The notes under the pieces were generated by a model. The model saw only the letters and a list, made by a program, of their open reading frames with translations. It ran no database searches and was not told where the DNA came from. Positions 24,904-39,398 of a DNA stretch of 64,000 bases are shown here, piece by piece. The stretch spans positions 307 through 64,306 of the forward strand of contig JANYDT010000076.1 of the NCBI GenBank assembly GCA_025359845.1. The letters run 5' to 3'. The stretch comes from Acidimicrobiia bacterium (GTDB taxonomy: Bacteria > Actinomycetota > Acidimicrobiia > Acidimicrobiales > JANYDT01). Position 1 is the first letter of the stretch; every line of letters begins with the position of its first letter. A program made the translations under genes and the position numbers.

Positions 24904-24963
24904 CCGCGCATAGTAGGGGCACGAGGACGCGCGTGGGATATCGTCCCGAGCAATGGACAGAAG

Positions 24964-26757
24964 ATGGAAACCATACGGGTGATCAGCTCCTTTGAGGCGG
25001 TAGTGGTGGGGTCGGGGTTTGGTGGTGCCGTGGTGGCATGTCGCAGCGCGCAGCGCTGGCCCGGTGCGGTGCTGGTATTGGAGCGCGGCAAGCGCTACCC
25101 GGCCGGCTCGTTCGCCCGAACCCCCGACGAGATGAGCAGCAACTTCTGGAACGCCGACGGCGATCGTAAGGGCAGGAAGAACTACCGTCACGGCGACCAG
25201 CGCGGCCTGTTCGATGTGAGGCATTTCCGTCGCATGGATGCCGTCCTGGCCGCCGGGCTGGGGGGCGGGTCGCTCATTTATGCCAACGTGATCCTCGAGC
25301 CACCAGAGGCTGTCTTCAATGATCGGCGCTGGCCCATGTCATGCACGGAAACGGCCATGCGGCCCTACTACGAGGTGGTGCGCAAGGTGCTTGGGGCCCG
25401 CCCGCTGCCCGACGCATCAAACGCGGAACGACGCGTGCCGAGGGCCGAGATCTTCGCCGATGCGGCCGTGAAGATGGGCCGCCAATCACGACCCCTGGAT
25501 CTCGCCGTGTACTTCGGAGACGACCCTTCGGCACCAATCGTGCCGGGGCGCACCGTTACCAATGCCCACGGCGCGGAACAGACATCGTGCACCTACTGCG
25601 GAGAGTGTGATCTTGGGTGCAACACTCACGCGAAGAACACCCTCGACCTCAACTATCTTTTTGTCGCCGAACACGACCATCGGGCCGCCATCGAGACGCA
25701 AAGTCTGGTCGAAAAGATCGTCCCCCTCGATGCTGATGGTCACGACGACCCGACCGCCGACGGAACCAACGGCTACCGGGTTCAGTACCGAAACCTCGAC
25801 CAGACAGTGTCGACGTCGGTCGTCGCCAAGCGCGTAATCGTCGCGGCTGGCGCGCTCGGATCGACGGAGCTGCTGCTGAGGTGCCGAGACATCCACAAGA
25901 CACTCCCCTCCCTCAGCCCCCGTCTCGGCACCGGGTTCTCGGGCAACGGAGACTTCTTGACGTTCGTCACCGGGGTCGAGAAGGAGACCCGGCCGAGTTA
26001 CGGGCCGGTCATCACCCAGGCCATCGATTTCAACCTGTTCGACAAACACGACCCCGACCGGGCGTTCATCTTGGAAGACGCCGGATACCCCAACGAATTG
26101 GCCTGGTTCGTCGAGGGGGCTAAGCCGGCGGTATTCAAGATCGGGGCCATCCTGCGGGCGGCTCGCCATGCTCTCAAACGGACCGCCCGAGGCCGGGCGG
26201 GGGGACGGATGGGTTACGCCTTGCGCGACGCCCTGGGCGGTGACGTGACCAGCAACTCGGCCGTCCTGCTGTGCATGGGCCTCGACTCGGCGACCGGCGA
26301 TCTCACCCTCGACCGTAACGGATGGGTCACCGTGCGGTGGCCGCAGCGGGCCAACCTGGCCCTCTACAAGGCCATCGCGCGAGCCGGCAAGGAATTCGGG
26401 ACAGCCGTCAGTGCCGCCCTCGTGGCGACGACCCCGACCTGGTGGCTTCCTATCCGTCGCAACGTTACCGTCCACGCCTTGGGCGGCTGCCCGCTGGGCG
26501 CGACCCGAGCCAGCGGGGTCGTGAGTTCCGACCCGAACCATTTCGGCGAGGCGTTCGGCTATCACAACCTTTTCGTGGCCGATGGGGCCATCGTACCGGT
26601 CTCACTGGGCTCGAATCCGTCACTCACGATTGCCGCGCTGGCCGAAATGGTGGCCGAGGGGATTACCGGTCAAATCCCGACTTGTGATTTACGTCATGGG
26701 TCGGCGAGTGATGTAGATCACAGTGCGATCCGCGTTCGCCCTATAGGAATGACGTGA
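24964..26757 (+). CDS. GMC-family FAD oxidoreductase (cholesterol-oxidase-like)
   Basis: The N-terminal FAD fold is FEAVVVGSGFGGAVVACRSA. The C-terminal part is HALGGCPLG...NLFVADGAIVPVSLGSNPSLTIAALAE, typical of GMC enzymes. Confidence 0.8.
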   Translation: METIRVISSFEAVVVGSGFGGAVVACRSAQRWPGAVLVLERGKRYPAGSFARTPDEMSSNFWNADGDRKGRKNYRHGDQRGLFDVRHFRRMDAVLAAGLGGGSLIYANVILEPPEAVFNDRRWPMSCTETAMRPYYEVVRKVLGARPLPDASNAERRVPRAEIFADAAVKMGRQSRPLDLAVYFGDDPSAPIVPGRTVTNAHGAEQTSCTYCGECDLGCNTHAKNTLDLNYLFVAEHDHRAAIETQSLVEKIVPLDADGHDDPTADGTNGYRVQYRNLDQTVSTSVVAKRVIVAAGALGSTELLLRCRDIHKTLPSLSPRLGTGFSGNGDFLTFVTGVEKETRPSYGPVITQAIDFNLFDKHDPDRAFILEDAGYPNELAWFVEGAKPAVFKIGAILRAARHALKRTARGRAGGRMGYALRDALGGDVTSNSAVLLCMGLDSATGDLTLDRNGWVTVRWPQRANLALYKAIARAGKEFGTAVSAALVATTPTWWLPIRRNVTVHALGGCPLGATRASGVVSSDPNHFGEAFGYHNLFVADGAIVPVSLGSNPSLTIAALAEMVAEGITGQIPTCDLRHGSASDVDHSAIRVRPIGMT

Positions 26758-28532
26758 TGACGACGCAGCTGCATTTCACCGAAGAGATGAAGGGGTTTTT
26801 CAGTATGGGCGCCGCCACCTTCCGCCAGGGCCGCGAGCGAGGCCACTCGGAGTCTTCCCGCCTCTTATTCCACCAGACGATCCAGATCGCCGACCTCGAT
26901 GCCGTCATGCGCGACACCGCCACGCCCGCCGTGCTCACCGGATACGTCGAGGCGCCCGCGCTCTCGTCCGATCCGCTCACCGTATCGAACGGGACCTTCC
27001 AGCTGATGGCGCCGAACCCCGACGACGTCGAGACGTTGAACATGCGCTACGGCATGGATCTCACGGCTACTGATGGTCGCCGCTTTCATTTCGATGGGTT
27101 CAAGACGCTGCGCCACGGGCTCCCGTGGAAGGCGTGGCCGGCGACCACCACCCTGTACGTGACGATCACCGAGCCTGCGCCCGACGCCGAGGGCGAGGCC
27201 TCCGAGCGTGCGAGCATTGTCGTTGGCCGCGGCGTGATGACCATCGGGATGTTCGCGTTCCTCAAGCTCCTCTCGACGGTACGGGTCGACGGCCTGAAGG
27301 GGCGTCGGCACAAGGTGCGGGCGATGATCGGCTTCAGCCGGGCGTTCATGGGCCGACTGGTGCCGCAGTATGGCGGCCCCTTCGCCGAGAAGGCCCGGTT
27401 CGCCAACCCGGCGCCGCCCGGGCGGCGGGCGCTCCGGCTTCCGGCTCCAGTGACCATGTGGTGCGACGCGAACGGCGCGTGGCATGACGGCGACCAACCC
27501 GGGCGCGACGCGTGGCTCATGCTGACCCGCTTTCAAGGGGGAACGAAAGGGCCGCTGCTCATGGCCGGCGGATACGCCATGGAGGGTCGAGCGTTCGCCA
27601 CACCGACCATCGACAACACCATGACCGAGTACGCGTTCGAACGGGGCTACGACGTGTGGTTGTTCGACTACCGCGCCAGCATTCGTTTACCGTCGGCGTC
27701 AACGTCGTTCACCATCGACGACATCGCGAGGCAGGATTGGCCGGAAGCCGTCGCCGAGGTCCGTCGGCGCACGAATGCTGAATCGGTACAGCTGCTCGGA
27801 CACTGCGTGGGGTCCGTCACAATCTTGATGGCCATGGCCGACGGGCTCGAATCGGTGCGGTCGGCCGTCTGCTCGCAGTTCTCCTTGCATGTCGTCACCA
27901 GCCGCCTCAATCGGGCCAAAAACGCCCTGCACATGGGCGCCCTCATGCACGCATTGCACCTCAAGGTGGTGCACCCCGATACCAGGCCGACCGCGCTCAA
28001 CAAGGTTTTCGACGCGGCGCTCGCAGTGCTGCCGCAACCGAAAGGCGAACGGTGCAACGAACCCGTCTGCCGGTGGATCAACGCCATCTTCGGTCTCACC
28101 CACAACCACGGGCAACTCAACGACGCCACCCACGAGAGCCTCCGCGAGGCGTTCGGGTTCGCCAACCTGACGGGACTCCGCCACCTCAGCCGCATGTTCG
28201 TGAAGGGTCAGGTGGTCGACGCGAAAGGCAACGACACCTACCTCGCCCACCCGGAGCGCCTCAACGTGCCGATCCTGTTCGTGCAGGGCGCCCGCAACCA
28301 CATTTTCCGACCTGCGGGGACGGCCCGCACCGTGGAATGGCTCGGCGCCCACAACCCGCCCGAGCAGTATGAGATGATCGTGGTCCCCGAGTACGCGCAT
28401 CTCGACATGATGATCGGGAAGAACGCTGACAAAGAGATTTTTCCGCAAATCTTCGACCACCTCGACAGGCTCAATCCGCTTGTTGGGTCGGTCGCGCCGG
28501 TCTCGCCGGTCGTTTCAGTCGCAGGGTTGTAG
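26754..28532 (+). CDS. Alpha/beta-fold hydrolase with N-terminal beta-rich domain; Cys in the nucleophile elbow
   Basis: The elbow is VQLLGHCVGSVTILMA, i.e. G-H-C-V-G with the Cys codon tgc at 27804-27806. The C-terminal part is ILFVQGARNHIF...VPEYAHLDMMIG (His). The start overlaps the GMC stop (GTGATG, 26754-26759). Confidence 0.7.
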   Translation: MMTTQLHFTEEMKGFFSMGAATFRQGRERGHSESSRLLFHQTIQIADLDAVMRDTATPAVLTGYVEAPALSSDPLTVSNGTFQLMAPNPDDVETLNMRYGMDLTATDGRRFHFDGFKTLRHGLPWKAWPATTTLYVTITEPAPDAEGEASERASIVVGRGVMTIGMFAFLKLLSTVRVDGLKGRRHKVRAMIGFSRAFMGRLVPQYGGPFAEKARFANPAPPGRRALRLPAPVTMWCDANGAWHDGDQPGRDAWLMLTRFQGGTKGPLLMAGGYAMEGRAFATPTIDNTMTEYAFERGYDVWLFDYRASIRLPSASTSFTIDDIARQDWPEAVAEVRRRTNAESVQLLGHCVGSVTILMAMADGLESVRSAVCSQFSLHVVTSRLNRAKNALHMGALMHALHLKVVHPDTRPTALNKVFDAALAVLPQPKGERCNEPVCRWINAIFGLTHNHGQLNDATHESLREAFGFANLTGLRHLSRMFVKGQVVDAKGNDTYLAHPERLNVPILFVQGARNHIFRPAGTARTVEWLGAHNPPEQYEMIVVPEYAHLDMMIGKNADKEIFPQIFDHLDRLNPLVGSVAPVSPVVSVAGL

Positions 28533-28535: not shown

Positions 28536-31500
28536 ATGAGACTGGGGCGCCGTATCGACGCGGTCGACGTCTCGATCGGCATTCCGCCGCTCGCTATCTC
28601 GGGCTCCTTCCGCCCGTCGAAGGCCGAGCAACTTGGGGCGTGGGAGTTGCTGGTGGAGCTGACGTCTCGTACCGCAGTAGCGCCGCTGGCTCCTGATGTC
28701 GGACTCTTGCGAGAAGCGCTTTCGAGTCATTATGCGCTCTTCCAGATCACCCGGGACATCTTGCGCAAGCACGGGCCGGAAGTGGCCGATTCCCGCCATG
28801 ACGGCAACCTGTCGCTCGGCGTCATGGCCATGCGCGTGCTCAACGAAGTGCTGCGCCCGACTCTGTCTCGTTGGCACCCGGCATTGGCTGACTACGAAAA
28901 CGGCCGCCCGCAAGGGGTGAGCCAACTTGAGTGGGAGCGAAGATGGGCTCGGGACAAGGAGTGCCGGACCGCGCTCAACGACGTTCGGGCCGCGGTGCGC
29001 AGTTACATCGACGCGCTCGGTCGTATCGCCGGCGCTCCTGATCTCGCCGACGCCGCCGTTGCGGTGCCCCCCTCGCGGCCGGCGCCTCTGGAGCGGCGGG
29101 CCGGCGAGTCGTCGGAATCAAAGCCCGAGCCAATTGGTGCGGAACCACAATGGCCGCGGCCCGACGGGTCGCCGAAGAAGCGGATGGTCGCATGGTTCGA
29201 CCTGGTTGAAGGCCTCCGCACGATGAAAGCCATCCGAATCGGCAAACGCGACGACAAGGCAAGGGCCGACTCGACGGCCCCCGAACGACTCGTCACCCTC
29301 GATCTGTCGGCCACGACCGGCGACGTGTGGGTCGATTATGTGGCTGATCTCGGCGACGCATTCGATGCGACGATGGCCGTGGCCTGGTTCCTCACCCGCA
29401 AGCACCTGCACGTTCCCAGCGACGAGAACGCCGAGTTCCCGGCCGTCCCGAGCGGTGGCCTCCCCCGGGGCGAGCTGCTCATCATGGGCGGCGACGAGGT
29501 GTACCCGTACGCGTCGCGCGACAGGTACGAGCAACAGACCGTCCTGCCCTACGTTTGCGCCCGAGACGACGCAACGGTCGGAAGGGTTCTGGCCCTCCCG
29601 GGCAACCACGACTACTACGGCGGGATCAATCATTTCGAGGAGCGCTTCGTGGGCGACGGCGCCGAGGTCGCAGGAACCGGCCTCGGATCCGGCCCCGGAT
29701 CTTGGGCCTCGGCCGGACAGGACCGGCGCTGGTTCTCGACCAAACTCCCGCACGGATGGTGGATCTGGGGGCTCGACACCGGCCTCGACGGATCCATCGA
29801 CAAGGGCCAGCGTGAGCACTTCCGCCATCTCGTGGCGAGCGACCAGTTCGGCCACGGCGACCGGGTCGTGCTGTGCACTCCGGTCCCGCTCTGGCAGCTG
29901 CGCCAGAAGCACGAGGGCCAGTACCAAGACCTCCGACAACACATCGACGGATGGCTCGAGCCGAAGCTGGGCACGGTCGCCCTGTTCGTGGCCGGCGACT
30001 CCCATTACTTCGCGCAATACGACGACACGAGCCGCGACGAACACCACCTCACCGTGGGCGGCGGCGGCGCCTTCCTCCATCCGACCCATTCGCTGGCCGA
30101 ACGCGTGCCGTCGGAGCGGGGCCGGCCCGAGTTCCGGCTCAACGCAAGGTGGCCGTCTCCGGTCGACAGCCGGGCCCTCGCGCCGCGCTTCACCATGCTG
30201 CGGAACCGCCAATTCCTGGCCCTGGGATTGATCTTCGCGGGGGTCTTCGGACTCGGCGCGTGGCTGGTGTCGACACGCTGGCTGCGGCTGCCGTGGGGAG
30301 CGGAGGCCGCCCGGCCCTGGCCCCTCGGCGCGCTTTCTTACGTGGCCCGGGTCGGTGCCCTGTGGCCGGTTCTATTGGTGCTGGCCGTTGCCGGTGCTTT
30401 TCTCACGACGCCGAACGCCCGCGAACACATGCTCCGCCAAGGGGCCCACCGCTACGGACTGGCATTCGGAGGCGCATTGGGCTCCGTGCTGTTCGTTGCC
30501 CTCGTCCATGCCTTCTGGCTCATCGACACGGTGATCCAGCCTTCGTGGGGGCGATTCTGGTGGTTCGGCGGGGCGTCGCTACTCGCCGGCGTCATCCTGC
30601 TCGCCACGTTCCTCCGCGGCGTTGGGTGGCTGTGCGTCCATCTCCGGGTCAACGACAACCTCGCCTTCTCTGCGGTGGCGTCGCCCCGTTTCAAACACTT
30701 CGTCCGATTTCGCTTCGACTGCGATGGGCGGCTCACCGTGTACATCGTCGGCATCGATCCGATCGGACGGGGCTGGTGGGACGCGATGGGCAAAAACCGC
30801 GTACTGCCCCCATCGGACCCCGCCGGAGTGGCCCACCTTCATTACGTGTGGGGCACGACGATTCCGGTGCGCACTGCGCCCGGCGATCCTGGCGCGGCTC
30901 TTCGCTTGGTCGCCATCTCGGTCTCGACGACCGGCGACGACGAACCCCCGGCCTCGCCGGCCCTGGAGATAGTCGTTCGCGTTGTGATAGGTGGCCTGCT
31001 GGCCGACGACATCAGTGTCGCTTACGGCGGATGGCCGGGCCCGAACGGAACAACCGAGACGGACTTCAGGTCAGTGCTCGCCGATGCGGCGACGGTCGCG
31101 ACGGCCTGCGGGACGGGCCCAAATGGACCGGACGGGACGGGTGCGGACGGCTCGGGTGCGCACGGGCCTGGTGCAGACGGGCCCGGCCCCACCAGGCCGA
31201 CAGCGGGCGTCGTGAGCTATCTCGCCGCACCCCTCTGGTCGAGAAAGGGCCCCTCCATGAGCCCCGACGGGTCGGAGATCCGCTGCGACGCCCTTCCGAG
31301 CGGTTGCAAGGTGCTGCCGCACCCGCTCGACGCGCGGGCCCTGGCCTTCACGTCGATGCGCGAGCGGATGGCGGCGGACTGCACCGCCCGCGTGATCGTC
31401 GGAGGCCGCCTCAACGACTACGCCGGGCGGTATCCCGGCGTGATCGAGGAGGCCATCACGACGATCGCGGCCGGTGGCGCCTTGTACATCGTGGGCGGGT

Positions 31501-31811
31501 TCGGAGGGGCGGCGGCGGCACTGGCCCGCCACGTCCGAGGCGAGACGGTTCCCGAACTTAGCAACATATGGCAGCGGGCCCACACCCCCGCCGTCGCCGC
31601 CCGCGGCACCCGTCTGGCCGACACGACCTACCGGATCGACCTCGAGGCCGACCTCACCGCGGCCCTTCCCCGGGGCCACTGGTCGAGCCTGCGCAACGGG
31701 CTCAGCGTCGAGCAGAACGAGCGGCTGGCGGTCGCCGCCGATCCGTCCGAAATCGTCGCGCTCATCCGCCGCGGGATCGACCAACTCTTCACCCGACGAC
31801 CTCAGCGATGA
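28536..31811 (+). CDS. Multidomain membrane protein: helical N-domain, calcineurin-type metallophosphoesterase, 4 TM helices, C-terminal SLOG/LOG-like Rossmannoid domain
   Basis: The MPE motifs are DYVADLGD, GGDEVY, LPGNHDY, VAGDSHY and GGGGAFLHP. The hydrophobic helices are FLALGLIFAGVFGLGAWLV, ALWPVLLVLAVAGAFL, GLAFGGALGSVLFVALVHAFWLI and FGGASLLAGVILLATFL. The C-terminal part reads VAISVSTTG..VVRVVIGGLLADDISVAYGGWPG...ARVIVGGRLNDYAGRYPGVIEEAITTIAAGGALYIVGGFGGAAAALA. The gene starts 3 nt after the hydrolase stop. The MPE and TM calls are firm. The SLOG-like call is motif-level only. Confidence 0.7.
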   Translation: MRLGRRIDAVDVSIGIPPLAISGSFRPSKAEQLGAWELLVELTSRTAVAPLAPDVGLLREALSSHYALFQITRDILRKHGPEVADSRHDGNLSLGVMAMRVLNEVLRPTLSRWHPALADYENGRPQGVSQLEWERRWARDKECRTALNDVRAAVRSYIDALGRIAGAPDLADAAVAVPPSRPAPLERRAGESSESKPEPIGAEPQWPRPDGSPKKRMVAWFDLVEGLRTMKAIRIGKRDDKARADSTAPERLVTLDLSATTGDVWVDYVADLGDAFDATMAVAWFLTRKHLHVPSDENAEFPAVPSGGLPRGELLIMGGDEVYPYASRDRYEQQTVLPYVCARDDATVGRVLALPGNHDYYGGINHFEERFVGDGAEVAGTGLGSGPGSWASAGQDRRWFSTKLPHGWWIWGLDTGLDGSIDKGQREHFRHLVASDQFGHGDRVVLCTPVPLWQLRQKHEGQYQDLRQHIDGWLEPKLGTVALFVAGDSHYFAQYDDTSRDEHHLTVGGGGAFLHPTHSLAERVPSERGRPEFRLNARWPSPVDSRALAPRFTMLRNRQFLALGLIFAGVFGLGAWLVSTRWLRLPWGAEAARPWPLGALSYVARVGALWPVLLVLAVAGAFLTTPNAREHMLRQGAHRYGLAFGGALGSVLFVALVHAFWLIDTVIQPSWGRFWWFGGASLLAGVILLATFLRGVGWLCVHLRVNDNLAFSAVASPRFKHFVRFRFDCDGRLTVYIVGIDPIGRGWWDAMGKNRVLPPSDPAGVAHLHYVWGTTIPVRTAPGDPGAALRLVAISVSTTGDDEPPASPALEIVVRVVIGGLLADDISVAYGGWPGPNGTTETDFRSVLADAATVATACGTGPNGPDGTGADGSGAHGPGADGPGPTRPTAGVVSYLAAPLWSRKGPSMSPDGSEIRCDALPSGCKVLPHPLDARALAFTSMRERMAADCTARVIVGGRLNDYAGRYPGVIEEAITTIAAGGALYIVGGFGGAAAALARHVRGETVPELSNIWQRAHTPAVAARGTRLADTTYRIDLEADLTAALPRGHWSSLRNGLSVEQNERLAVAADPSEIVALIRRGIDQLFTRRPQR

Positions 31812-33397
31812 CGAAAATCTTCATGAGCTACCGGCGCGCCGACAGTGCTTCGGCGACCACGTCGGTTCGGCTCCTGCTCGAGCGGTACTACCGCGACGAC
31901 GACATCTTCCAGGACTACGAGTCGATTCCTCCGGGCGACGAGTTCTGGCCGTGCATCGAAGGCCACATCAAGGCAGCCAACGTGCAGTTGGTCATGATCG
32001 GACCACGGTGGCTCACGGAGATGCATGCGAGCGGCGGCCGGCGCATCGACCACCCCGACGACTGGGTGGCGCGCGAAGTGGCGCTGGGCCTCGAAACCAA
32101 GACCGTGCGGGTGATCCCTGTGTTCGTCGACGGCGCCAACCCCGACACAGTCCTGAAAGCTGATCCCTTACCGGCCCGCATCCAATCGCTCATGAGCAAG
32201 AACGGTCGGACGCTGCGCGGTGACAGCCTCGAAGGCGACGTGAAGGAGCTCGTCGGTTGGATCGGCCGGAAGCGCTACGACCCCCGTGACAACCCTCGGA
32301 TCTACGCCGGGATCGGCGCGGCGGTGCTGGCGCTGGGGATCGCGATCGCGATCCCGGCGACGAGATCCTCGGGATCAGACACCGTCATCAGTCAGCCCAC
32401 AACCGCGGCACGCGCGCCCCTGCAGGTTCATCTCGCAGGCCCGACCGGATTGTTCGAGGACCGCGTCACCAGAGATCTGTATATAACCGATACGAAGGGG
32501 AACTGGGTCTACAAGCGTTCGCCCGACGGATCGACAGTTGCCGTGGCCGGTCGGGGCGAGTCGAAAATTCAGGCCTTCAGCGAGTCCGGCGTCGCCACCG
32601 ATCTATACCTCTATCGCCCCGCCGGCATCGTCAGCGCCAGCGACGGGGTGCTCTGGTTCGCGGACCACGGCATCATCCGTTTCCTTTCCAACGGCCGAAT
32701 CGCCACCGGTGCGGGCATCTACGGCCAGTCAATCTACGACGGGGACGGCGAAGCCGTCCAACGGTCGATCAACCCCAACATGTTGGCCATCGGCCCCGAC
32801 GACAGCATCTACTTCTCCGACACCGACAACCATCTCGTCCGAGTCCTCCAAGGCGGCCGTTTCCGGACCCTGGCCGGAGTAAGAGTCGACGAAAAACCCG
32901 TCGGTGGCTTCAATGGCGAAGACGGAGTCGGCACGGCTATCAAGTTGAACAGACCGTACGGAGTCGCGATTGACGCTCACGACAACCTTTACATCGCCGA
33001 CACCGAAAACAATCGAGTCCGCAAACTCTCCCTGACAACCCACCAAATTACAACCGTCGCAGGCGGCGGCACGTCATCAGCCGACGGCCCCGCCCTCCAA
33101 GTCGCGCTCGACAACCCAACCGGGGTCACTGTCGCCCCCGATGGGTCCGTTTACATCTCCGAATACGCAGGAAACCGAGTTCGTAAACTGAGCGTCGATG
33201 GTCTCTTGACGACGGTGGCCGGGAAAGACAGCGCAACGTGCAAAAGCGGGGATCGACCCGTCTCGTCTTGCACGCTCCAAGGCCCCAACACCGTGCTGGC
33301 CGCGGCCGACGGGAGCGGCATCTACATCAGCGAATACGTCGGCCACAAAGTACGCAAACTGGACCTGGACGGCAAGCTCACACTCGTTCAAGGCTGA
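31808..33397 (+). CDS. TIR domain - single TM - NHL-repeat beta-propeller protein (receptor-like)
   Basis: From the ATG overlapping the upstream stop (ATGA, 31808-31811) the protein reads MTKIFMSYRRADS...DDWVAREVALGL, a TIR_2-type signature with Glu at 32075-32077. A TM helix IYAGIGAAVLALGIAIAIPA follows the basic stretch GRKRYDPRDNPR. Repeated NHL-like blades follow (LYIADTENNRVRKL, VYISEYAGNRVRKL, IYISEYVGHKVRKL, IYFSDTDNHLVRVL). Confidence 0.8.
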   Translation: MTKIFMSYRRADSASATTSVRLLLERYYRDDDIFQDYESIPPGDEFWPCIEGHIKAANVQLVMIGPRWLTEMHASGGRRIDHPDDWVAREVALGLETKTVRVIPVFVDGANPDTVLKADPLPARIQSLMSKNGRTLRGDSLEGDVKELVGWIGRKRYDPRDNPRIYAGIGAAVLALGIAIAIPATRSSGSDTVISQPTTAARAPLQVHLAGPTGLFEDRVTRDLYITDTKGNWVYKRSPDGSTVAVAGRGESKIQAFSESGVATDLYLYRPAGIVSASDGVLWFADHGIIRFLSNGRIATGAGIYGQSIYDGDGEAVQRSINPNMLAIGPDDSIYFSDTDNHLVRVLQGGRFRTLAGVRVDEKPVGGFNGEDGVGTAIKLNRPYGVAIDAHDNLYIADTENNRVRKLSLTTHQITTVAGGGTSSADGPALQVALDNPTGVTVAPDGSVYISEYAGNRVRKLSVDGLLTTVAGKDSATCKSGDRPVSSCTLQGPNTVLAAADGSGIYISEYVGHKVRKLDLDGKLTLVQG

Positions 33398-33441: not shown

Positions 33442-33657
33442 TCAGCTGTCGTAGCGGAAGCCGAGCTTGAGCGTCACTTGGAACTGGCGGACTTCTGACA
33501 TCGGTCCGATCGCCCCCCGGATGTCGGTCACCTCGAACCAGTCGAGATTGCGCAGCGACTCGCTGGCCCGCCTGATGCCGTTCTTGATGGCGTCGTCCAG
33601 TCCGACGTCGGAGGTCCCCACCAAGTGCGTGATGGCAAATGTCGAGTTGTCGGGCAT
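33442..33657 (-). CDS. Dodecin family flavin-binding protein
   Basis: The 71-aa product is ...FAITHLVGTSDVGLDDAIKNGIRRASESLRNLDWFEVTDIRGAI...VRQFQVTLKLGFRYD. It matches the dodecin pattern (VGTS...A...RNLDWFEV...FQVTLKVGF) that I recall. Confidence 0.8.
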   Translation of the reverse strand: MPDNSTFAITHLVGTSDVGLDDAIKNGIRRASESLRNLDWFEVTDIRGAIGPMSEVRQFQVTLKLGFRYDS

Positions 33658-33921
33658 AGCGCTCCTTTTTGATGTGTCGCATTGGCGTAGCCAAGCGAAC
33701 GAGATACTAGCGACCTCAGCATTGCGCCGCTCGGCTGGCGCTCCTGGTCATTGGGGCGAGTGTTCGCAGCGGCTCGCGACACCACGCGACTTCGACCGCG
33801 ACGCGCCAGGACTCTGCGACTTGCCCTGACGTCTCGGCTGGCCGAAAGGCGTAGTGTGGCGGTGTGCCCATCGCTGTTGCCTCGTTCGGGAACGTAGTGG
33901 TGGAAAATCGCGAAGTGCGTG

Positions 33922-34290
33922 ATGCTTGAAGTCGGGTTTGATGCCGCGAATCTGTTGGAAGTGCTGGAGGGGGCGAGTTTTCAAGATATAGATGAGTTGG
34001 CGTTTGGGTTAGTCGTAATGGATCGTGCTGGTGACGTTGTCTTTTATAATGCTGACGAAGCTGCCCGAGCCGGCCTTTCGGCGGATCGGGTGATTGGGCG
34101 CAACTTTTTCGAGTCGGTTGGTCCCTGCACAAACAATTATTTGGTGGCGCAGCGCTTCTTGGATGAGCCGGACCTCGATGAGTTTGTGGATTTCGTTTTC
34201 ACGTTACGTATGGCGCCGACGCCGGTGCGGTTGAGGATGATGGCAAGCGCCGGCTCTCCACGCCAGTACTTGGCCGTACTGGATCGATGA
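33922..34290 (+). CDS. pyp: Photoactive yellow protein (PYP)-like PAS domain protein
   Basis: The 122-aa product from ATG 33922 (a GTG at 33919 is also in frame) is alignable over its full length with my recollection of Halorhodospira PYP: AFGLVVMDRAGDVVFYNADEAARAGLSADRVIGRNFFESVGPCTNN...FTLRMAPTPVRLRM versus [46 protein letters not shown]...FDYQMTPTKVKVHM. The chromophore Cys (tgc 34126-34128), the Tyr in FYN and the Glu in ADE are all present. Confidence 0.8.
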   Translation: MLEVGFDAANLLEVLEGASFQDIDELAFGLVVMDRAGDVVFYNADEAARAGLSADRVIGRNFFESVGPCTNNYLVAQRFLDEPDLDEFVDFVFTLRMAPTPVRLRMMASAGSPRQYLAVLDR

Positions 34291-37315: not shown

Positions 37316-37573
37316 ATGGATGTCGGGGTACGCGAGCTTCGCAACCATACGGCCGATGTGATCGCTGCGGTCGAGGCTGGTGAAATTGTGTATTTGACGT
37401 CGCATCGCCGGCGTATCGCGGTAATCACTCCTGTGAATGGGGTCGAGGGCGATCTGTTGCGTGCGTTGATGGAGCGGATCGATCGCACCCCGGCGTTCGA
37501 CAGCGGACTGGCGGAGGCGGTGGAGGCGAGCCGGGCGCTCTATCAGACGCAGGAGCGTGAGCCGTGGTCGTGA
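37316..37573 (+). CDS. Phd/YefM-family type II antitoxin
   Basis: MDVGVRELRNHTADVIAAVEAGEIVYLTSHRRRIAVITPV is the typical Phd/YefM N-terminus. The TGA overlaps the toxin ATG (TGATG at 37571-37575). Confidence 0.8.
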   Translation: MDVGVRELRNHTADVIAAVEAGEIVYLTSHRRRIAVITPVNGVEGDLLRALMERIDRTPAFDSGLAEAVEASRALYQTQEREPWS

Positions 37574-37986
37574 TGCTCGACACCTCCGCAGTCATTGCGT
37601 TGGTGGAGCGCAAACACGCCGGCGTGCGTTCGGCTGTCGTCGAAAGTGGATCGGTCCCATCGATCTCGGTGATCACATTGGGGGAGTTGCATCACGGGGT
37701 TGAATCGGCGCCCGATGGAGGGCGTCGGCGGCTACGACAGTTGACGGTGGATGCATGTGAGCTGATGACGGTTAAGCCGGTGAGCGATGAGGTCGCGCGC
37801 CGTTACGGTCAACTCTCAGCCGACGTTTCGCGCCGCATCCGCGCCGCGGATCGGTGGATAGCGGCGACGGCGGCGATTGAGGGCAGCCTGCTGGTGACCT
37901 TCGACGGTCATCTGGCCGCGGAGCTTGGGCGTGTGCAGGCCGAGCAAGAACCGAGACCGGTTCGCGTGATGTTGCTCGAAGGCTGA
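37573..37986 (+). CDS. vapC: PIN-domain toxin (VapC family)
   Basis: MLDTSAVIAL...ITLGELHHGV...DRWIAATAAIEGSLLVTFD carries the conserved PIN acidic positions (D, E, D, D). Confidence 0.8.
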   Translation: MLDTSAVIALVERKHAGVRSAVVESGSVPSISVITLGELHHGVESAPDGGRRRLRQLTVDACELMTVKPVSDEVARRYGQLSADVSRRIRAADRWIAATAAIEGSLLVTFDGHLAAELGRVQAEQEPRPVRVMLLEG

Positions 37987-38017: not shown

Positions 38018-38578
38018 TCAGGGCCCGAACGCCACGAGCCCCTCGAACAGTTCGCCGACGGGAAGCGAAATCGGCGGGCAGGTGAGGGCAATCGTATCGA
38101 TCGGACCGACGACTTCGAGCTGCCAGCCCCTATCGGTACGCCAGTGGTGTTCGATGCGAGGCTGGTCCTGATGCACCACGAGATAGTGCCGCAACGACTC
38201 AATGGCGAAGTAGGCGCCCCGCTTCTCGCGCTGGTCGATGTCGCGAGTCGACGGAGACAGCACCTCGGCCAAGAGGCACGGCGAGGTCTCGAAGTAGGGG
38301 TCGGCCTGCTCCTCGCAGGCGACCATCACGTCGGGATAGTAGCCCGCGTTCTCGGTCATGAGGCGCATGTCGGACGCATAGGTCCGGCACCCGTGTCGTT
38401 TGGCGACAGGGTGCAGGTGAGCGACGATCTCCATGGCAATACGGTTGTGCACGCCGCTCGTACCGGTCATTGCGAACAACACTCCACCGATCCATTCGTG
38501 ACGAATGGTCGAGTCGCGCTCGCAGCAGAGGTATTCGGTCTTGGAGATCAACTGGCGGGCGGTGTCGCTCACAGCCAC
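38018..38578 (-). CDS. Uma2 (DUF820) family endonuclease
   Basis: EYLCCERDSTIRHEWIGGVLFAMTGTSGVHNRIAMEI...YYPDVMVAC...LAEVLSPSTRDIDQREKRGAYFAIESLRHYLVV is the restriction-endonuclease-like PD-(D/E)xK pattern of Uma2. Confidence 0.75.
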   Translation of the reverse strand: MAVSDTARQLISKTEYLCCERDSTIRHEWIGGVLFAMTGTSGVHNRIAMEIVAHLHPVAKRHGCRTYASDMRLMTENAGYYPDVMVACEEQADPYFETSPCLLAEVLSPSTRDIDQREKRGAYFAIESLRHYLVVHQDQPRIEHHWRTDRGWQLEVVGPIDTIALTCPPISLPVGELFEGLVAFGP

Positions 38579-38678
38579 AAGTCTACGGGTCGTCGGACCG
38601 GGTCGGTCCGCCTCGTCGGGCCCCCACCGTGCAGGTATTCGAGCACACCGCGCCGGAACCCGGAGTTAAGATTATTTC

Positions 38679-39398
38679 ATGACGACGATCGTCGAAGACC
38701 TGGTGTATCCGGAGGAGGCGCACAGCGTGACCGGCACCGACGACCACCTCAGCTGGATCATCTTGTTGCGGGGCAACCTCCGCGCCGTTTTCCACGGGCA
38801 GAACGTCTACATCGGCGGCGACATCTTCTGGTATCCCGTCGAAGGAGAGCCCCGGATCTGCGCCTCGCCCGACGCTCTGGCCGTGTTCGGGCGCCCGCAG
38901 TACAACCGCCGCACTTGGCAGAACTGGCACGAGGAAGGTCTCGGCCCCCAAGTAACAGTCGAAGTCTTGTCGGTGGTCAACAAGACCGCCGCGGGGCGGC
39001 GGGAACTGGCCAACAAGGTCGAGTTGTACCAGCGCCACGGCGTGGAGGAGTACATCGAACTCGATCCCGATCGTCCGTCTATCGTCGTGTGGTTACGAGG
39101 TCCGTCCGGACTGGTCCGCACTGCGCCGCTAACAAGATGGGTGAGCCCCCGGCTCAACGTCACTTTTGCTGTTGAACCCGACGGACTTAACGTTTACGGC
39201 CCTGACGGCGCTCGGTTCGTGGCCCAGGAAGACGCTTTGCGTCAAGGCCGGATCGACGCGGCGCGAGCCCAACAAGAAGCGGCGCGAGCCCAACAAGAAG
39301 CGGACCGAGCGAACCGGGAAGCGAAGCGCGCGACCGAGGCCGAGGCCGAGGTAGTCCGGCTTCGAGCCGAAATCGACGCACTTCGAAAGGGTGAATGA
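38679..39398 (+). CDS. Uma2 (DUF820) family endonuclease with C-terminal coiled-coil tail
   Basis: HLSWIILLRGNL...YIGGDIFWYPVEG...SPDALAVFG...VTVEVLSVVNKTAAGRRELANKVELYQRHGVEEYIELDP is the Uma2 core. The tail is AARAQQEAARAQQEADRANREAKRATEAEAEVVRLRAEIDALRKGE. Confidence 0.75.
   Translation: MTTIVEDLVYPEEAHSVTGTDDHLSWIILLRGNLRAVFHGQNVYIGGDIFWYPVEGEPRICASPDALAVFGRPQYNRRTWQNWHEEGLGPQVTVEVLSVVNKTAAGRRELANKVELYQRHGVEEYIELDPDRPSIVVWLRGPSGLVRTAPLTRWVSPRLNVTFAVEPDGLNVYGPDGARFVAQEDALRQGRIDAARAQQEAARAQQEADRANREAKRATEAEAEVVRLRAEIDALRKGE
39258..39320 (+). repeat. 21-bp in-frame tandem repeat (2 perfect + 1 degenerate copy)
   Basis: gcggcgcgagcccaacaagaa occurs twice and is followed by gcggaccgagcgaaccgggaa. 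They encode the AARAQQE repeats in the Uma2 tail. Confidence 0.8.

What the first reader, a model, noticed from the sequence alone, without database searches (positions are those of the whole stretch)
28536..33397. Receptor-like TIR-TM-NHL protein translationally coupled to a metallophosphoesterase-4TM-SLOG-like protein: candidate undescribed TIR signalling/defence pair
Seen in sequence: the 1091-aa ORF (28536-31811) and the 529-aa ORF (31808-33397) overlap by ATGA. The 529-aa product begins MTKIFMSYRRADS and contains DDWVAREVALGL (Glu codon 32075-32077). A basic stretch GRKRYDPRDNPR precedes a single hydrophobic helix (about 32300-32356). About 330 aa of NHL-like blades follow (NNRVRKL, GNRVRKL, GHKVRKL, NHLVRVL). 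The 1091-aa product has four parts in order: a ~165-aa helical N-domain, calcineurin-type motifs (DYVADLGD, GGDEVY, LPGNHDY, VAGDSHY; about 29319-30095), four TM helices (about 30207-30635), and a C-terminal alpha/beta region. That C-terminal region reads VAISVSTTG..VVRVVIGGLLADDISVAYGGWPG ... ARVIVGGRLNDYAGRYPGVIEEAITTIAAGGALYIVGGFGGAAAALA (about 30903-31535). It is split by a Gly/Pro/Asp low-complexity insert (31110-31193). Established knowledge: F-x-S-Y-x-x-x-D plus W-x-x-x-E is the bacterial TIR (NADase-type) signature. NHL propellers are extracytoplasmic sensor domains in PknD-type kinases. Gly-rich strand-loop patterns with PG-x-x-EE resemble LOG/SLOG nucleotide-binding domains. In type I Thoeris the SLOG domain of ThsA receives the TIR-made cyclic ADP-ribose isomer. 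Inference: the sensor would be outside and the TIR inside, a Toll-like-receptor topology. The TIR would produce an NAD-derived signal read by the SLOG-like tail of a membrane phosphoesterase, acting either as effector or as signal-degrading enzyme. I know of no described system with this composition.
Basis: partly seen in the sequence, partly recalled or inferred. Interest (0 to 1): 0.9.

Follow-up and report, generated by a model that had tools for sequence, protein, structure and literature searches.

The report
Membrane TIR–SLOG signalling pair with phosphoesterase
Two overlapping genes in an Acidimicrobiia-type actinobacterium encode a receptor-shaped TIR protein (sensor outside, TIR inside) and a membrane phosphoesterase with a SLOG nucleotide-sensor tail; this looks like an uncharacterised membrane-bound variant of Thoeris-like TIR signalling, and no experiment has tested it.

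Summary
These are TIR_2 with the catalytic Glu in place, one TM helix, a six-blade NHL propeller, a purple-acid-phosphatase-like metallophosphoesterase (MPE), four TM helices, and a C-terminal SLOG domain (Pfam PF18163 "SLOG cluster2", E 1.4e-28; Foldseek hits to ThsA and TRPM2 SLOG).

TIR and MPE-4TM-SLOG2 are linked at domain level in 10-11 of 14 related loci: adjacent TIR genes, MPE-4TM-TIR-SLOG fusions, and TIR|SLOG2 two-gene operons. The exact pair, however, is confined to this lineage.
- The nearest TIR-TM-NHL homologues are stand-alone genes.
- The nearest MPE-SLOG homologue carries the TM-NHL fused on and has no TIR.

The system is larger than two genes. It includes a cholesterol-oxidase-like GMC oxidoreductase, an alpha/beta hydrolase, and a divergent cyclase-STAND NTPase; elsewhere a multi-TM patatin takes the place of the first two. 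The helical N-domain belongs to a large unnamed family that is itself linked to TIR.

Verdict: a new variant of a known kind (TIR to SLOG signalling) with a new effector and a receptor-like TIR. Its function is not demonstrated. Interest 0.62.

The parts
28536..31811 (+). Gene for the 1091-aa membrane protein, in order: N-domain, PAP-like metallophosphoesterase, 4 TM helices, small beta domain, SLOG cluster2
   Evidence: ORF; 55 homologues; identical gene call in a near-identical contig
28548..29060 (+). N-domain (aa ~5-175): a beta-hairpin plus a helical bundle. It belongs to a large family with no Pfam match that is linked to TIR proteins
   Evidence: AF2 secondary structure and pLDDT. 877 representative clusters at E<=1e-3. 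TIR_2-Ndom, BTAD-STAND-Ndom and HTH-Ndom fusions. Ndom|TIR operon on a Streptomyces plasmid
29313..30155 (+). Metallophosphoesterase domain (aa ~260-540) with purple-acid-phosphatase-type motifs: D271-x-G, G-D320-x-x-Y323, G-N357-H358-D, H490, H504, H518
   Evidence: Foldseek top hits are purple acid phosphatases (E 8e-8, prob 1.0), then GAP50, SMPDL3A/B, GpdQ and PhoD. D271, D320, Y323, N357, H358, H490 and H518 are invariant in 49 sequences and H504 is kept in at least 90%. Pfam Metallophos is sub-threshold
30213..30638 (+). Four transmembrane helices (aa 560-578, 606-624, 642-660, 683-701). The cytoplasmic loop 2 carries the conserved N627 and E630
   Evidence: Hydropathy; conservation; Lys+Arg density higher in the predicted inside loops
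30648..30869 (+). Conserved small beta-rich domain after TM4 (D707, K720, F722, R724, G731, W747, PP758-759, W772). It ends the SLOG-less family members
   Evidence: Invariant columns; AF2 strands with modest pLDDT
30903..31730 (+). SLOG cluster2 domain (aa ~790-1065), interrupted by a disordered Gly/Pro/Asp insert (31110-31193). Conserved motifs: Y830-GG, R942, GG956-957, P967-G-x-x-EE972, GGFGG987-991
   Evidence: PF18163 E 1.4e-28. Foldseek: TRPM2/4/8 N-terminal SLOG, EcThsA, BcThsA SLOG with 3'cADPR, DprA, LOG, PpnN. Conservation. Insert has pLDDT<50
31808..33397 (+). Gene for the 529-aa TIR-TM-NHL protein; its start overlaps the upstream stop (ATGA)
   Evidence: Homologues P0059, P0061 and P0063 start at the same MT(K/R)IF
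31808..32230 (+). Cytoplasmic TIR domain (aa 1-141). Glu90 (32075-32077) lies in the W-x-x-x-E motif
   Evidence: TIR_2 32.4 bits. The best PDB sequence match is the SARM1/TIR-1 TIR, where DDWVAREV aligns to EDWVHKEL. The Glu column is kept in the partner TIRs
32300..32356 (+). Single TM helix, preceded by the basic stretch GRKRYDPRDNPR
   Evidence: Hydropathy; positive-inside count 5 vs 1
32420..33394 (+). Predicted extracytoplasmic six-blade NHL beta-propeller
   Evidence: PF01436 E 1e-18 and TEN_NHL. Six (V/I/L)R-type blade motifs in the translation. Topology inferred
26754..28532 (+). Alpha/beta-hydrolase-fold protein (592 aa) with Cys in the nucleophile elbow (GHCVG). It ends 3 nt before the MPE gene
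   Evidence: Pfam Abhydrolase_1. Motif and junctions. Homologues lie next to MPE-4TM genes in several phyla
24964..26757 (+). GMC oxidoreductase (597 aa), cholesterol-oxidase-like; overlaps the start of the hydrolase gene
   Evidence: Pfam. PDB cholesterol oxidase E 1e-23. Conserved neighbour of MPE-4TM in L027, L028, L033, L048, L052, L077 and L079
22237..24903 (-). Divergently transcribed adenylate/guanylate cyclase-STAND (NB-ARC-like) NTPase. The ORF runs to 25224, but the near-identical contig aa
   Evidence: Pfam; gene call. Cyclase- or kinase-STAND genes accompany N-dom-MPE genes in L001, L002, L005, L006, L007, L016 and L018-L021

Best explanation
This is a membrane-bound, Thoeris-like TIR to SLOG signalling module sitting inside a larger STAND-associated gene cluster.

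Proposed mechanism:
1. The 529-aa protein is a type-I membrane receptor. Its six-blade NHL propeller faces outside and its TIR domain faces the cytoplasm (topology inferred).
2. When triggered, the TIR domain, which keeps the catalytic Glu, converts NAD+ into an ADP-ribose-derived nucleotide (inferred from family knowledge).
3. That nucleotide is bound by the SLOG cluster2 domain at the cytoplasmic C-terminus of the 1091-aa protein (inferred from ThsA and TRPM2 precedent and from the recurrent TIR-SLOG2 linkage).
4. Binding switches on the effector part. This is a purple-acid-phosphatase/SMPDL3-like binuclear metallophosphoesterase held at the inner face of the membrane by four TM helices.
5. 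I think the most likely substrate is a membrane or envelope phospho-compound, such as a lipid head group or a pyrophosphate-linked precursor. The outcome would be membrane damage or growth arrest. The co-transcribed cholesterol-oxidase-like GMC enzyme and the alpha/beta hydrolase would be auxiliary lipid-acting enzymes. In sister loci a multi-TM patatin phospholipase takes their place.
6. The TIR-linked N-domain and the neighbouring cyclase-STAND NTPase probably add a second layer of control.

Shown here: the gene structure, the domain identities, the conserved catalytic and ligand residues, and the recurrent genomic linkage. Inferred: every biochemical step, the trigger, and the physiological role (phage defence versus other regulated cell death or envelope signalling).
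For: - Domain identities.
- Catalytic residues are kept. TIR Glu90 aligns with the catalytic Glu of SARM1-type TIRs. Six of the seven PAP-type metal-ligand positions are invariant in 49 homologues and the seventh, H504, is kept in at least 90%. The SLOG glycine-rich and PG-x-x-EE motifs are conserved.
- Translational coupling: ATGA overlap; four tightly packed genes.
- TIR next to MPE-4TM-SLOG2: TIR genes are directly upstream in L002/L003, L004, L005, L019, L020 and L021, overlapping the MPE start by 4 nt in L005.
- TIR fused between the 4TM and SLOG: P0023, L013, L072.
- A separate TIR-SLOG2 gene beside a SLOG-less or SLOG-bearing MPE: L016, L017.
- Stand-alone SLOG2 in 4-nt-overlapping TIR|SLOG2 operons: L093, L095. 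SLOG2 hits on plasmids fall inside TIR genes.
- The NHL sensor is physically fused to MPE-4TM-SLOG in P0002/P0003. The NHL ectodomain therefore belongs functionally with this protein.
- The partners are all membrane proteins: TIR+6TM and patatin with 6-8 TM helices.
- The N-domain is independently linked to TIR.
- Lipid-acting neighbours are present: a cholesterol-oxidase-like GMC and patatin.
Against: - The closest relative (P0002/P0003) has no TIR in the protein or anywhere in its 10-kb contig. L001 and L018 also lack a nearby TIR, and L006 has only a TIR remnant.
- The nearest TIR-TM-NHL homologues are stand-alone genes in conserved housekeeping or lipid-metabolism synteny. The TIR receptor can therefore work without this partner.
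- The MPE-4TM core is widespread (at least 518 loci) without TIR or SLOG. Its basal role may be metabolic.
- PADLOC and NCBIfam recognise no defence system. The flanks are housekeeping genes. No phage homologues were found.
- The 'SLOG and 4TM' TIR operons tested by others gave no defence in E. coli, although it is unknown whether they are homologous to this protein.
- TIR|SLOG2 operons with no further effector leave open that SLOG2 is an enzyme acting on the TIR product rather than a sensor.
- No substrate of the phosphoesterase is known.
Confidence: 0.5

Rival explanations
1. Signal-processing or 'chanzyme-like' reading. The phosphoesterase is not the killing effector. Instead it hydrolyses the pyrophosphate or phosphodiester bond of the TIR-made ADP-ribose derivative, either to mature it or to switch it off. 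The 4TM part may be the real output, for example a pore or channel gated by the SLOG domain. The parallel is TRPM2, where an N-terminal SLOG binds ADPR, the TM part is the channel, and a fused NUDT9-H enzyme destroys ADPR.
For: - The best structural matches of the C-terminal model are TRPM2 'chanzyme' structures with ADP-ribose.
- The MPE matches SMPDL3A-type enzymes. From my own knowledge, not checked here: SMPDL3A degrades cGAMP, and the MPE ADPRibase-Mn hydrolyses ADPR and cADPR.
- TIR|SLOG2 operons without any other effector suggest that SLOG2 and its partners may act on the nucleotide itself.
- A '4TM SLOG' effector class is listed among candidate Thoeris systems.
Against: - The MPE-4TM-beta core is ancient and occurs in hundreds of genomes with no TIR or SLOG nearby. 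A nucleotide-signal-degrading role cannot be its general function.
- The four helices show no match to known pore or channel families (Pfam).
- No oligomer or pore evidence was obtainable here.
Confidence: 0.2
2. This is not an immune system. It is an envelope or lipid-homeostasis signalling device. The NHL ectodomain monitors a cell-wall or environmental cue. The TIR-SLOG relay then tunes a membrane phosphoesterase that works with the GMC oxidase and the alpha/beta hydrolase to remodel membrane lipids.
For: - The GMC plus alpha/beta-hydrolase plus MPE-4TM association is conserved in at least seven loci from several phyla that have no TIR or SLOG.
- The GMC enzyme is cholesterol-oxidase-like.
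- Stand-alone TIR-TM-NHL orthologues sit in a conserved block with GpsA, an acyl-CoA synthetase, PlsC-type acyltransferases and WS/DGAT.
- The window's flanks are cell-wall and cofactor genes.
- PADLOC finds no defence system and no mobile-element genes lie next to the operon.
Against: - In sister loci the same N-dom-MPE gene sits with patatin, TIR, kinase- or cyclase-STAND NTPases and caspase/CHAT genes, and once beside an integrase and a TrwC relaxase. From my own knowledge, this gene set is typical of conflict or regulated-cell-death systems.
- The architecture varies between close relatives (TIR lost, fused or replaced). Such variation is characteristic of conflict systems, not of housekeeping pathways.
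Confidence: 0.2
3. Fortuitous adjacency. The TIR-TM-NHL gene is a self-contained sensor-NADase that landed downstream of an unrelated MPE-SLOG gene. The two do not communicate.
For: - The exact pair is seen only in this lineage (window, P0001/P0056, L179). Other TIR-TM-NHL genes are solitary.
- The metagenome scan found no further examples.
Against: - The 4-nt start/stop overlap.
- SLOG2 and the N-domain are each repeatedly linked to TIR elsewhere.
- The window's TIR domain belongs to the same subfamily as the TIR+6TM partners of the other MPE-SLOG genes (phmmer E 1e-8 to 1e-13; alignment).
- The NHL ectodomain is fused onto the MPE-SLOG protein in P0002/P0003.
Confidence: 0.1

Closest known systems
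Type I Thoeris (ThsB TIR + ThsA SIR2-SLOG)
   Same: A TIR protein is encoded next to a protein whose SLOG domain would receive the TIR-made ADP-ribose isomer. The C-terminal model matches ThsA SLOG structures, including BcThsA SLOG bound to 3'cADPR.
   Different: The effector is not SIR2 but a membrane-embedded PAP-like phosphoesterase with an extra N-domain. The SLOG belongs to a different family (PF18163 cluster2). The TIR is a membrane receptor with an NHL ectodomain. PADLOC ThsB is only a marginal hit (E 0.0015) and ThsA is not hit.
Candidate Thoeris configurations 'SLOG and 4TM' and 'SLOG Patatin', and types III and IX (TIR + SLOG or TIR-SLOG effectors), in Yirmiya et al., bioRxiv 10.64898/2025.12.03.692087
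   Same: The domain logic is the same: a TIR gene plus an effector that combines SLOG with TM helices. Patatin and TIR-SLOG fusions also occur in the sister loci found here.
   Different: The paper and its supplements never mention a metallophosphoesterase, calcineurin or NHL. Their two '4TM SLOG' operons (Streptomyces sp. GKU 895 and Ca. Nitrospira nitrosa) gave no defence in E. coli. Their GKU 895 TIR is only 15% identical to this one.
Pfam PF18163 'SLOG cluster2' (LD_cluster2). From my own knowledge it derives from Burroughs et al. 2015, Nucleic Acids Res, which I could not read here
   Same: The C-terminal domain is a clear member: 100.6 bits here and full-length profile coverage in homologues.
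   Different: What that paper says about the family's partners could not be checked. It may already have noted TIR or phosphoesterase contexts.
TRPM2 channel-enzymes (N-terminal SLOG/MHR1-2 + TM channel + NUDT9-H ADPR pyrophosphatase)
   Same: One membrane protein combines a SLOG fold, TM helices and a phospho(di)esterase-type enzyme. TRPM2 structures are the top Foldseek hits for the C-terminal model.
   Different: The domain order, TM architecture (4 helices against 6 plus a pore) and enzyme superfamily (MPE against Nudix) all differ. The resemblance is one of logic, not homology of the whole protein.
Purple acid phosphatases and SMPDL3A/B, GpdQ, PhoD (binuclear metallophosphoesterases)
   Same: Same fold (Foldseek prob 1.0). 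Same ordered motif set: DxG, GDxxY, GNHD, H, H...H.
   Different: Sequence identity is about 12-16%. No PDB sequence hit appears even with a profile. Four TM helices are inserted before the last beta segment. The location is cytoplasmic rather than secreted, and the substrate is unknown.
Toll-like receptors and the PknD-type NHL sensor kinase
   Same: Shares the TLR topology of extracellular sensor, single TM helix and cytoplasmic TIR. Shares with PknD (from my own knowledge) an NHL propeller used as an actinobacterial ectodomain.
   Different: The ectodomain is NHL, not LRR. The TIR keeps the enzymatic Glu of NADase-type TIRs and is not expected to act as a scaffold. No kinase is present. Nothing suggests common descent of the whole architecture with TLRs.

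Membership tests
TIR domain (Pfam TIR_2, NADase-type) | Profile match above the curated threshold | tested here: met
   PF13676: 32.4 bits against a cut-off of 28, aa 4-113
TIR domain (Pfam TIR_2, NADase-type) | Catalytic Glu in the W-x-x-x-E position | tested here: met
   DDWVAREV aligns with EDWVHKEL of the SARM1/TIR-1 TIR. The column is kept in partner TIRs. That this Glu is SARM1's catalytic residue is from my own knowledge
TIR domain (Pfam TIR_2, NADase-type) | NAD+ cleavage or signal production | not testable with these tools
   Needs an enzyme assay
SLOG superfamily, cluster2 (PF18163) | Profile match above the curated threshold | tested here: met
   100.6 bits against 25.3. Only profile positions 135-264 align in the window protein because of the insert. 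Homologues align over 5-264
SLOG superfamily, cluster2 (PF18163) | Rossmannoid SLOG fold | tested here: met
   Foldseek hits: TRPM2/4/8 N-terminal domains, EcThsA, BcThsA SLOG, DprA, LOG, PpnN. The model has pLDDT of only 70
SLOG superfamily, cluster2 (PF18163) | Binds (or processes) a nucleotide ligand | not testable with these tools
   Only motif conservation could be shown
Calcineurin-like metallophosphoesterase superfamily | Pfam PF00149 above the gathering score | tested here: not met
   18.6 bits against 21.5. Relatives P0052 (26.4 bits) and P0005/P0007 pass
Calcineurin-like metallophosphoesterase superfamily | MPE beta-sandwich fold | tested here: met
   AF2 pLDDT 83, pTM 0.82. Foldseek prob 1.0 to purple acid phosphatases, SMPDL3A/B, GpdQ and PhoD
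Calcineurin-like metallophosphoesterase superfamily | Ordered metal-ligand motifs conserved | tested here: met
   D271, D320, Y323, N357, H358, H490 and H518 are invariant, and H504 is kept in at least 90%, across 49 sequences. Assigning these positions to metal ligands is by motif order, not by superposition
NHL-repeat beta-propeller | NHL repeat profile and six blades | tested here: met
   PF01436: 66.6 bits against 20, plus TEN_NHL. Six blade motifs can be read in the translation
Thoeris type I | ThsA (SIR2-SLOG) effector and ThsB-type TIR | tested here: not met
   PADLOC gives no hit for the 1091-aa protein. ThsB is marginal at E 0.0015, 15.7 bits. No SIR2 domain is present
Thoeris type III | NCBIfam equivalogs of the type III components | tested here: not met
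   ThcB4: 17.2 bits against a cut-off of 220. Nothing for the SLOG protein
Thoeris-like system in the broad sense (signalling TIR + effector with a ligand sensor) | TIR gene in an operon with an effector that carries a known TIR-signal sensor domain | tested here: met
   ATGA-coupled TIR and SLOG genes. The linkage recurs elsewhere
Thoeris-like system in the broad sense (signalling TIR + effector with a ligand sensor) | Enrichment in defence islands or anti-phage activity | tested here: inconclusive
   The window's flanks are housekeeping genes. A Phd/PIN toxin-antitoxin pair and Uma2 genes lie about 4 kb downstream. Sister loci contain caspase, CHAT, STAND, patatin and integrase genes. Anti-phage activity was not tested
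'SLOG and 4TM' candidate Thoeris effector (Yirmiya et al. 2025) | Homology to their effector representatives | not testable with these tools
   Only their TIR domain sequences are in the held supplements.
Receptor topology (sensor outside, TIR inside) | N-in/C-out orientation of the single TM helix | tested here: met
   Lys+Arg before/after the TM helix: 5/1, 3/2, 3/1 and 6/2 in four family members. There is no N-terminal signal peptide, and the linker after the TM is S/T/P-rich (42% S/T/P over 260 aa in P0002). This is a prediction, not an experiment

The most novel reading that the evidence does not exclude
A bacterial receptor with true Toll-like topology (extracytoplasmic NHL propeller, one TM helix, enzymatic cytoplasmic TIR) senses an event outside the cell, such as phage adsorption, envelope damage or a neighbour's molecule. 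It relays this through an NAD-derived nucleotide to a SLOG-gated, membrane-embedded phosphoesterase that also carries a second, previously unnamed TIR-linked sensor or adaptor domain. That would be transmembrane TIR signalling in bacteria, with an effector class (N-dom + PAP-like MPE + 4TM, possibly channel-enzyme-like as in TRPM2) that no characterised system has.
Probability: 0.25. Interest if true: 0.85.

Novelty: new variant of a known kind. Interest (0 to 1): 0.62.

Why it matters
Known bacterial TIR signalling systems (Thoeris types) use soluble TIR sensors that detect infection from inside the cell. Their effectors include SIR2, Macro-TM, caspase-like and SLATT proteins.

This locus would add three things:
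- A TIR whose sensor domain is predicted to lie outside the membrane. That makes outside-in TIR signalling in bacteria directly testable.
- A new effector chassis, a membrane-inserted purple-acid-phosphatase-like enzyme under SLOG control. It points to membrane or envelope phospho-substrates, or to enzymatic turnover of the signal.
- A large unnamed domain family (877 clusters at 50% identity) that repeatedly accompanies TIR and STAND proteins and may be a new sensor or adaptor.

The recurrent cluster in Acidimicrobiia (cyclase- or kinase-STAND, multi-TM patatin, TIR+6TM, N-dom-MPE-4TM-SLOG) suggests an entirely membrane-resident signalling complex in a poorly studied, uncultured lineage.

Tried and rejected
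- Burroughs et al. 2015, the source of the SLOG cluster families, could not be read by PMC id or DOI. Full-text searches for SLOG + patatin + phosphoesterase + TIR, and for 'LD_cluster2' or PF18163, found nothing relevant.
- A profile search of the whole family against PDB sequences gave no MPE or SLOG hit, only a chance match to a designed helical protein. Structure prediction was needed instead.
- Identifying the N-domain by fold failed. In both the PDB and BFVD searches the MPE part dominated and no N-domain match appeared.
- The metagenome scan for more TIR-TM-NHL genes returned 80 loci that match only the NHL part.
- P0049 looked like a '4TM-SLOG only' protein but is just an N-terminally truncated copy of P0046.
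- The gene upstream of the TIR-TM-NHL homologue P0063 is another NHL protein, not an MPE.
- I tried to link the published '4TM SLOG' class through its Streptomyces TIR domain. Only distant TIR hits on plasmids came back and no usable neighbour.
- Promoter and terminator scans gave nothing above shuffled expectation, as expected for a 65% GC actinobacterium.
- The two largest clusters in my neighbour analysis were shadow ORFs overlapping the MPE gene and were discarded.
- Rejected idea: that the N-domain is a HEPN-type RNase. There is no R-x(4-6)-H motif among its invariant residues.
- Rejected idea: that the phosphoesterase is a dead enzyme. The putative metal-ligand positions are all conserved: six invariant and H504 in at least 90% of sequences.

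Full report
**1. The observation**

The two ORFs are present exactly as described: 28536-31811 (1091 aa) and 31808-33397 (529 aa), both on the + strand. The junction reads ...CAGCGATGACG..., so the TGA stop overlaps the ATG start. A near-identical public contig carries the same gene calls. All quoted peptide motifs and coordinates check out: Glu90 at 32075-32077, the TM helix at 32300-32356, and the Gly/Pro/Asp insert at 31110-31193. Hydropathy analysis finds four helices in the large protein (aa 560-578, 606-624, 642-660, 683-701) and one in the TIR protein (aa 165-183). The genes are real. The large protein has 55 homologues. The TIR protein has full-length homologues at 43-44% identity.

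**2. Domain identities**

Pfam results:
- Small protein: TIR_2 at 32.4 bits (cut-off 28) and NHL at 66.6 bits (cut-off 20).
- Large protein: PF18163 'SLOG cluster2' at E 1.4e-28, and a sub-threshold Metallophos hit at 18.6 bits (cut-off 21.5).

An AlphaFold2 model of aa 1-560, built from a 49-sequence alignment, has pLDDT 83 and pTM 0.82. It shows three parts:
- a beta-hairpin plus helical bundle (aa ~10-175);
- a disordered linker;
- an MPE sandwich.

Foldseek places the sandwich with purple acid phosphatases (E 8e-8, probability 1.0), then GAP50, SMPDL3A/B, GpdQ and PhoD. LpxH and Mre11 score far lower.

The motif set is of the PAP type: D271-x-G, G-D320-x-x-Y323, G-N357-H358-D, H490, H504 and H518. 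All of these are invariant across 49 sequences except H504, which is kept in at least 90%. The enzyme is therefore very likely active.

A model of aa 700-1091 (pLDDT 70) gives a small beta domain followed by a Rossmannoid domain. Its best matches are all SLOG-fold proteins: the TRPM2/4/8 N-terminal domains, EcThsA, the BcThsA SLOG bound to 3'cADPR, DprA, LOG and PpnN.

The TIR domain's best PDB sequence match is the SARM1/TIR-1 TIR. DDWVAREV aligns with EDWVHKEL, which places Glu90 on the catalytic Glu (the catalytic role of that residue is from my own knowledge).

**3. Topology**

The large protein has 560 residues with no signal peptide before TM1 and an even number of helices. The N-domain, MPE and SLOG should therefore all be cytoplasmic. 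Lys+Arg density is higher in the predicted inside loops across 31 homologues.

In the TIR protein, Lys+Arg in the 15 residues before versus after the TM helix is 5 vs 1. In three homologues the counts are 3/2, 3/1 and 6/2. The segment after the TM helix is S/T/P-rich, reaching 42% over 260 aa in P0002. TIR inside and NHL outside is the supported prediction. It remains a prediction.

**4. Related loci: the decisive evidence**

a. The MPE + 4TM + beta core (aa ~200-780) is an old and widespread family. At least 518 loci occur among GTDB species representatives, in Actinomycetota, Myxococcota, Acidobacteriota, Bacteroidota, Paenibacillus and Burkholderiaceae. Nearly all lack the N-domain, SLOG and any TIR.

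b. The N-domain-bearing subfamily is confined to Acidimicrobiia and Ilumatobacteraceae-type MAGs. It sits in a recurrent cluster: cyclase-FHA | Ser/Thr-kinase-STAND | patatin | TIR (~440 aa) | N-dom-MPE-4TM-SLOG. This cluster is seen in L002/L003, L005, L019, L020 and L021. Variants are:
- a soluble 245-aa TIR upstream (L004);
- only a TIR remnant (L006);
- no TIR (L001, L018);
- TIR fused between the 4TM and the SLOG (P0023, L013, L072);
- a SLOG-less MPE with a separate TIR-SLOG2 gene nearby (L016, L017).

In all, 10-11 of 14 informative loci carry a TIR gene or domain in the cluster.

c. Stand-alone SLOG2 proteins form 4-nt-overlapping TIR|SLOG2 operons (L093, L095). SLOG2 matches on plasmids fall inside genes annotated as TIR proteins.

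d. The ~440-aa TIR partners are TIR + 6 TM helices. The patatins carry about 6-8 TM helices. The whole set is membrane-resident, as is the window's TIR.

e. The window's TIR domain belongs to the same subfamily as those partners (phmmer E 1e-8 to 1e-13; alignment).

**5. What argues against a simple two-gene story**

- The nearest TIR-TM-NHL homologues (P0059, P0061) are solitary genes. They lie in a conserved block with PFOR, GpsA, an acyl-CoA synthetase, PlsC-type acyltransferases and WS/DGAT.
- P0063 follows another NHL gene, not an MPE.
- A metagenome scan found no further TIR-TM-NHL genes.
- The closest MPE-SLOG relative, P0002/P0003 at 54% identity, continues straight from the SLOG into a basic stretch, a fifth TM helix, a long S/T/P linker and an NHL propeller. 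It has no TIR in the protein or in its contig.

The fusion shows that the NHL ectodomain belongs with the MPE-SLOG protein. It also shows that the TIR can be dispensed with or supplied from elsewhere.

**6. The unit is larger than reported**

Upstream lie a cholesterol-oxidase-like GMC oxidoreductase (24964-26757; PDB E 1e-23) and an alpha/beta hydrolase (26754-28532). The hydrolase has Cys in its nucleophile elbow (GHCVG). The four genes overlap or are separated by only 3 nt.

Homologues of this GMC/hydrolase pair, often fused, are the commonest real neighbours of N-domain-less MPE-4TM genes. They occur in seven loci from different phyla. The association is therefore older than the TIR/SLOG link, and it points to lipid-type substrates.

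A cyclase-STAND NTPase is transcribed divergently (22237-24903). Cyclase- or kinase-STAND genes accompany almost every N-dom-MPE locus.

**7. The N-domain**

A search of 1.84 billion representative proteins finds 877 clusters at E<=1e-3 and 449 at E<=1e-10. None has a Pfam match. Most are stand-alone 165-200-aa proteins or tandem repeats. Fusions include TIR_2-Ndom, BTAD-STAND-Ndom and HTH-Ndom.

On a Streptomyces cynarae plasmid an N-domain gene overlaps the start of a 933-aa TIR gene, with a NUDIX gene upstream. In L017 a solitary copy follows patatin, an HExxH peptidase and an MBL-fold gene. The large protein thus carries two independently TIR-linked modules. The fold of the N-domain could not be assigned.

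**8. Context in the window**

The flanks are housekeeping genes: GT4 glycosyltransferases, LytR-CpsA-Psr, a MurA-like enzyme, CofD and CofE upstream, and a GAF-PAS-SpoIIE phosphatase and a nucleotidyl transferase downstream. A Phd/PIN toxin-antitoxin pair and two Uma2 genes lie about 4 kb downstream. PADLOC and NCBIfam recognise no defence system. No phage encodes a homologue.

**9. Mechanism**

Best-supported model (confidence 0.5):
- the NHL propeller senses something outside the cell;
- the cytoplasmic TIR makes an NAD-derived nucleotide;
- the SLOG2 domain binds it;
- binding activates the membrane PAP-like phosphoesterase, which acts on a membrane or envelope phospho-substrate;
- the lipid-acting neighbours serve as auxiliaries, and STAND and the N-domain provide extra control.

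Only the anatomy, the residue conservation and the genomic linkage are shown. Every biochemical step is inferred.

Rivals:
- The MPE processes or destroys the signal and the 4TM part is the output, a TRPM2-like channel-enzyme logic (0.2).
- The locus is an envelope or lipid-homeostasis circuit, not immunity (0.2).
- The adjacency is fortuitous (0.1).

**10. Comparison with what is known**

This is TIR to SLOG logic, as in Thoeris type I. It is not a member of type I or type III. There is no SIR2 domain, PADLOC ThsB is marginal, and the NCBIfam scores are far below cut-off.

A 2025 preprint lists 29 putative Thoeris configurations. They include 'SLOG and 4TM' and 'SLOG Patatin', both of which were negative in E. 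coli. The paper never mentions a phosphoesterase or NHL. Homology of their '4TM SLOG' effector to this protein could not be tested.

PF18163 shows that the SLOG family is already curated. Its source paper was not readable here.

**11. Verdict**

This is a new variant of a known kind. The TIR-SLOG relay is known. The N-dom + PAP-like MPE + 4TM effector, the receptor-like TIR-TM-NHL and the membrane-resident cluster are, as far as I could check, undescribed and untested. Interest 0.62. The most novel reading not excluded is outside-in TIR signalling to a SLOG-gated membrane enzyme or channel-enzyme. I give it probability 0.25, and it would merit about 0.85 if true.

Noticed in passing
window 28548-29060; also L017 14071-14661, L097 5896-6537, P0198, P0213, P0271, P0274: The ~165-aa N-domain (beta-hairpin plus helical bundle) belongs to a large family with no Pfam match: 877 clusters at 50% identity with E<=1e-3. 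Most members are stand-alone or tandem. Some are fused to TIR_2, BTAD-STAND or HTH domains. On a Streptomyces plasmid one is translationally coupled to a 933-aa TIR gene. It is a candidate new TIR- and STAND-associated sensor or adaptor domain.
   Followed up: partly
window 24964-28532; L027, L028, L033, L048, L052, L077, L079: A cholesterol-oxidase-like GMC oxidoreductase and an alpha/beta hydrolase, often fused into one protein, are the commonest conserved neighbours of N-domain-less MPE-4TM genes in several phyla. This suggests an older three-enzyme, probably lipid-directed, module.
   Followed up: partly
window 26754-28532 (aa ~387-391 of the product): The alpha/beta hydrolase has GHCVG in the nucleophile elbow and no G-x-S-x-G motif. 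Cys replaces Ser, as in PHA synthases. Its ~290-aa N-terminal half matches nothing in Pfam, and the whole protein has no PDB sequence hit.
   Followed up: no
L007 411-5312 (P0002); P0003: A 1633-aa single polypeptide reads N-dom-MPE-4TM-SLOG-TM5, then a ~250-aa S/T/P linker, then NHL, with no TIR. It is followed by a 103-aa gene and a cyclase-AAA_16-TPR STAND gene. It comes from the same metagenome sample (ERZ28573517) as the window's near-identical contig, but from a different organism.
   Followed up: partly
L002 4598-7949; L005 3588-7004: In the canonical Acidimicrobiia clusters the TIR partner is TIR + 6 TM helices and the patatin carries about 6-8 TM helices. All three effector or signalling proteins are therefore integral membrane proteins.
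   Followed up: partly
L004 4280-13216: One locus holds TIR|MPE-4TM-SLOG2 and, 1.4 kb further on, a second pair TIR_2|SLOG cluster3 (PF18180). A caspase (Peptidase_C14) and a deaminase lie upstream.
   Followed up: no
L093 6805-15320; L095 2753-10224: Minimal TIR_2|SLOG2 two-gene operons with a 4-nt overlap. One lies beside LCAT-type lipase, amidase/PG-binding, caspase and CHAT genes. The other lies among three further TIR genes, one fused to AAA_16 and one to pentapeptide repeats.
   Followed up: no
L006 6777-6986: Between the patatin gene and the MPE-SLOG gene only a ~70-aa TIR-like remnant is left where sister loci have a full TIR+6TM gene. This looks like recent loss of the TIR.
   Followed up: no
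L008-L012 (P0059, P0061): Stand-alone TIR-TM-NHL genes occupy a conserved position between PFOR subunits (or PPi-PEPCK) and gpsA, acyl-CoA synthetase and PlsC-type acyltransferases (WS/DGAT follows in L010/L011) in several Acidimicrobiia-like contigs. That is an unusually stable, lipid-metabolism neighbourhood for a TIR gene.
   Followed up: no
window 22237-25224 (-): The cyclase-STAND ORF (995 aa from the first ATG) would overlap the GMC gene by 260 nt. The near-identical contig aa (start near 24903), which removes the overlap and leaves a ~60-nt divergent intergenic region.
   Followed up: partly
window ~33442-33657 (-), 33919-34290 (+), 37316-37986 (+), 38018-39398: Downstream of the pair lie a dodecin gene on the opposite strand, a 122-aa gene overlapping the start of the GAF-PAS-SpoIIE phosphatase, a PhdYeFM/PIN toxin-antitoxin pair, and two Uma2-family endonuclease genes. 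The annotation is taken from the near-identical contig L179.
   Followed up: no
L013 7944-12255: The Ilumatobacteraceae MAG copy of the MPE-4TM-TIR-SLOG fusion is split over three reading frames (10 stops in a straight translation). It is either a pseudogene or carries assembly errors.
   Followed up: no
L180 5007-6755; L181 4944-6872: N-domain-less MPE-4TM genes on rhizobial plasmids are isolated genes annotated 'metallophosphoesterase'. One lies next to a DUF3800 gene and an integrase.
   Followed up: no
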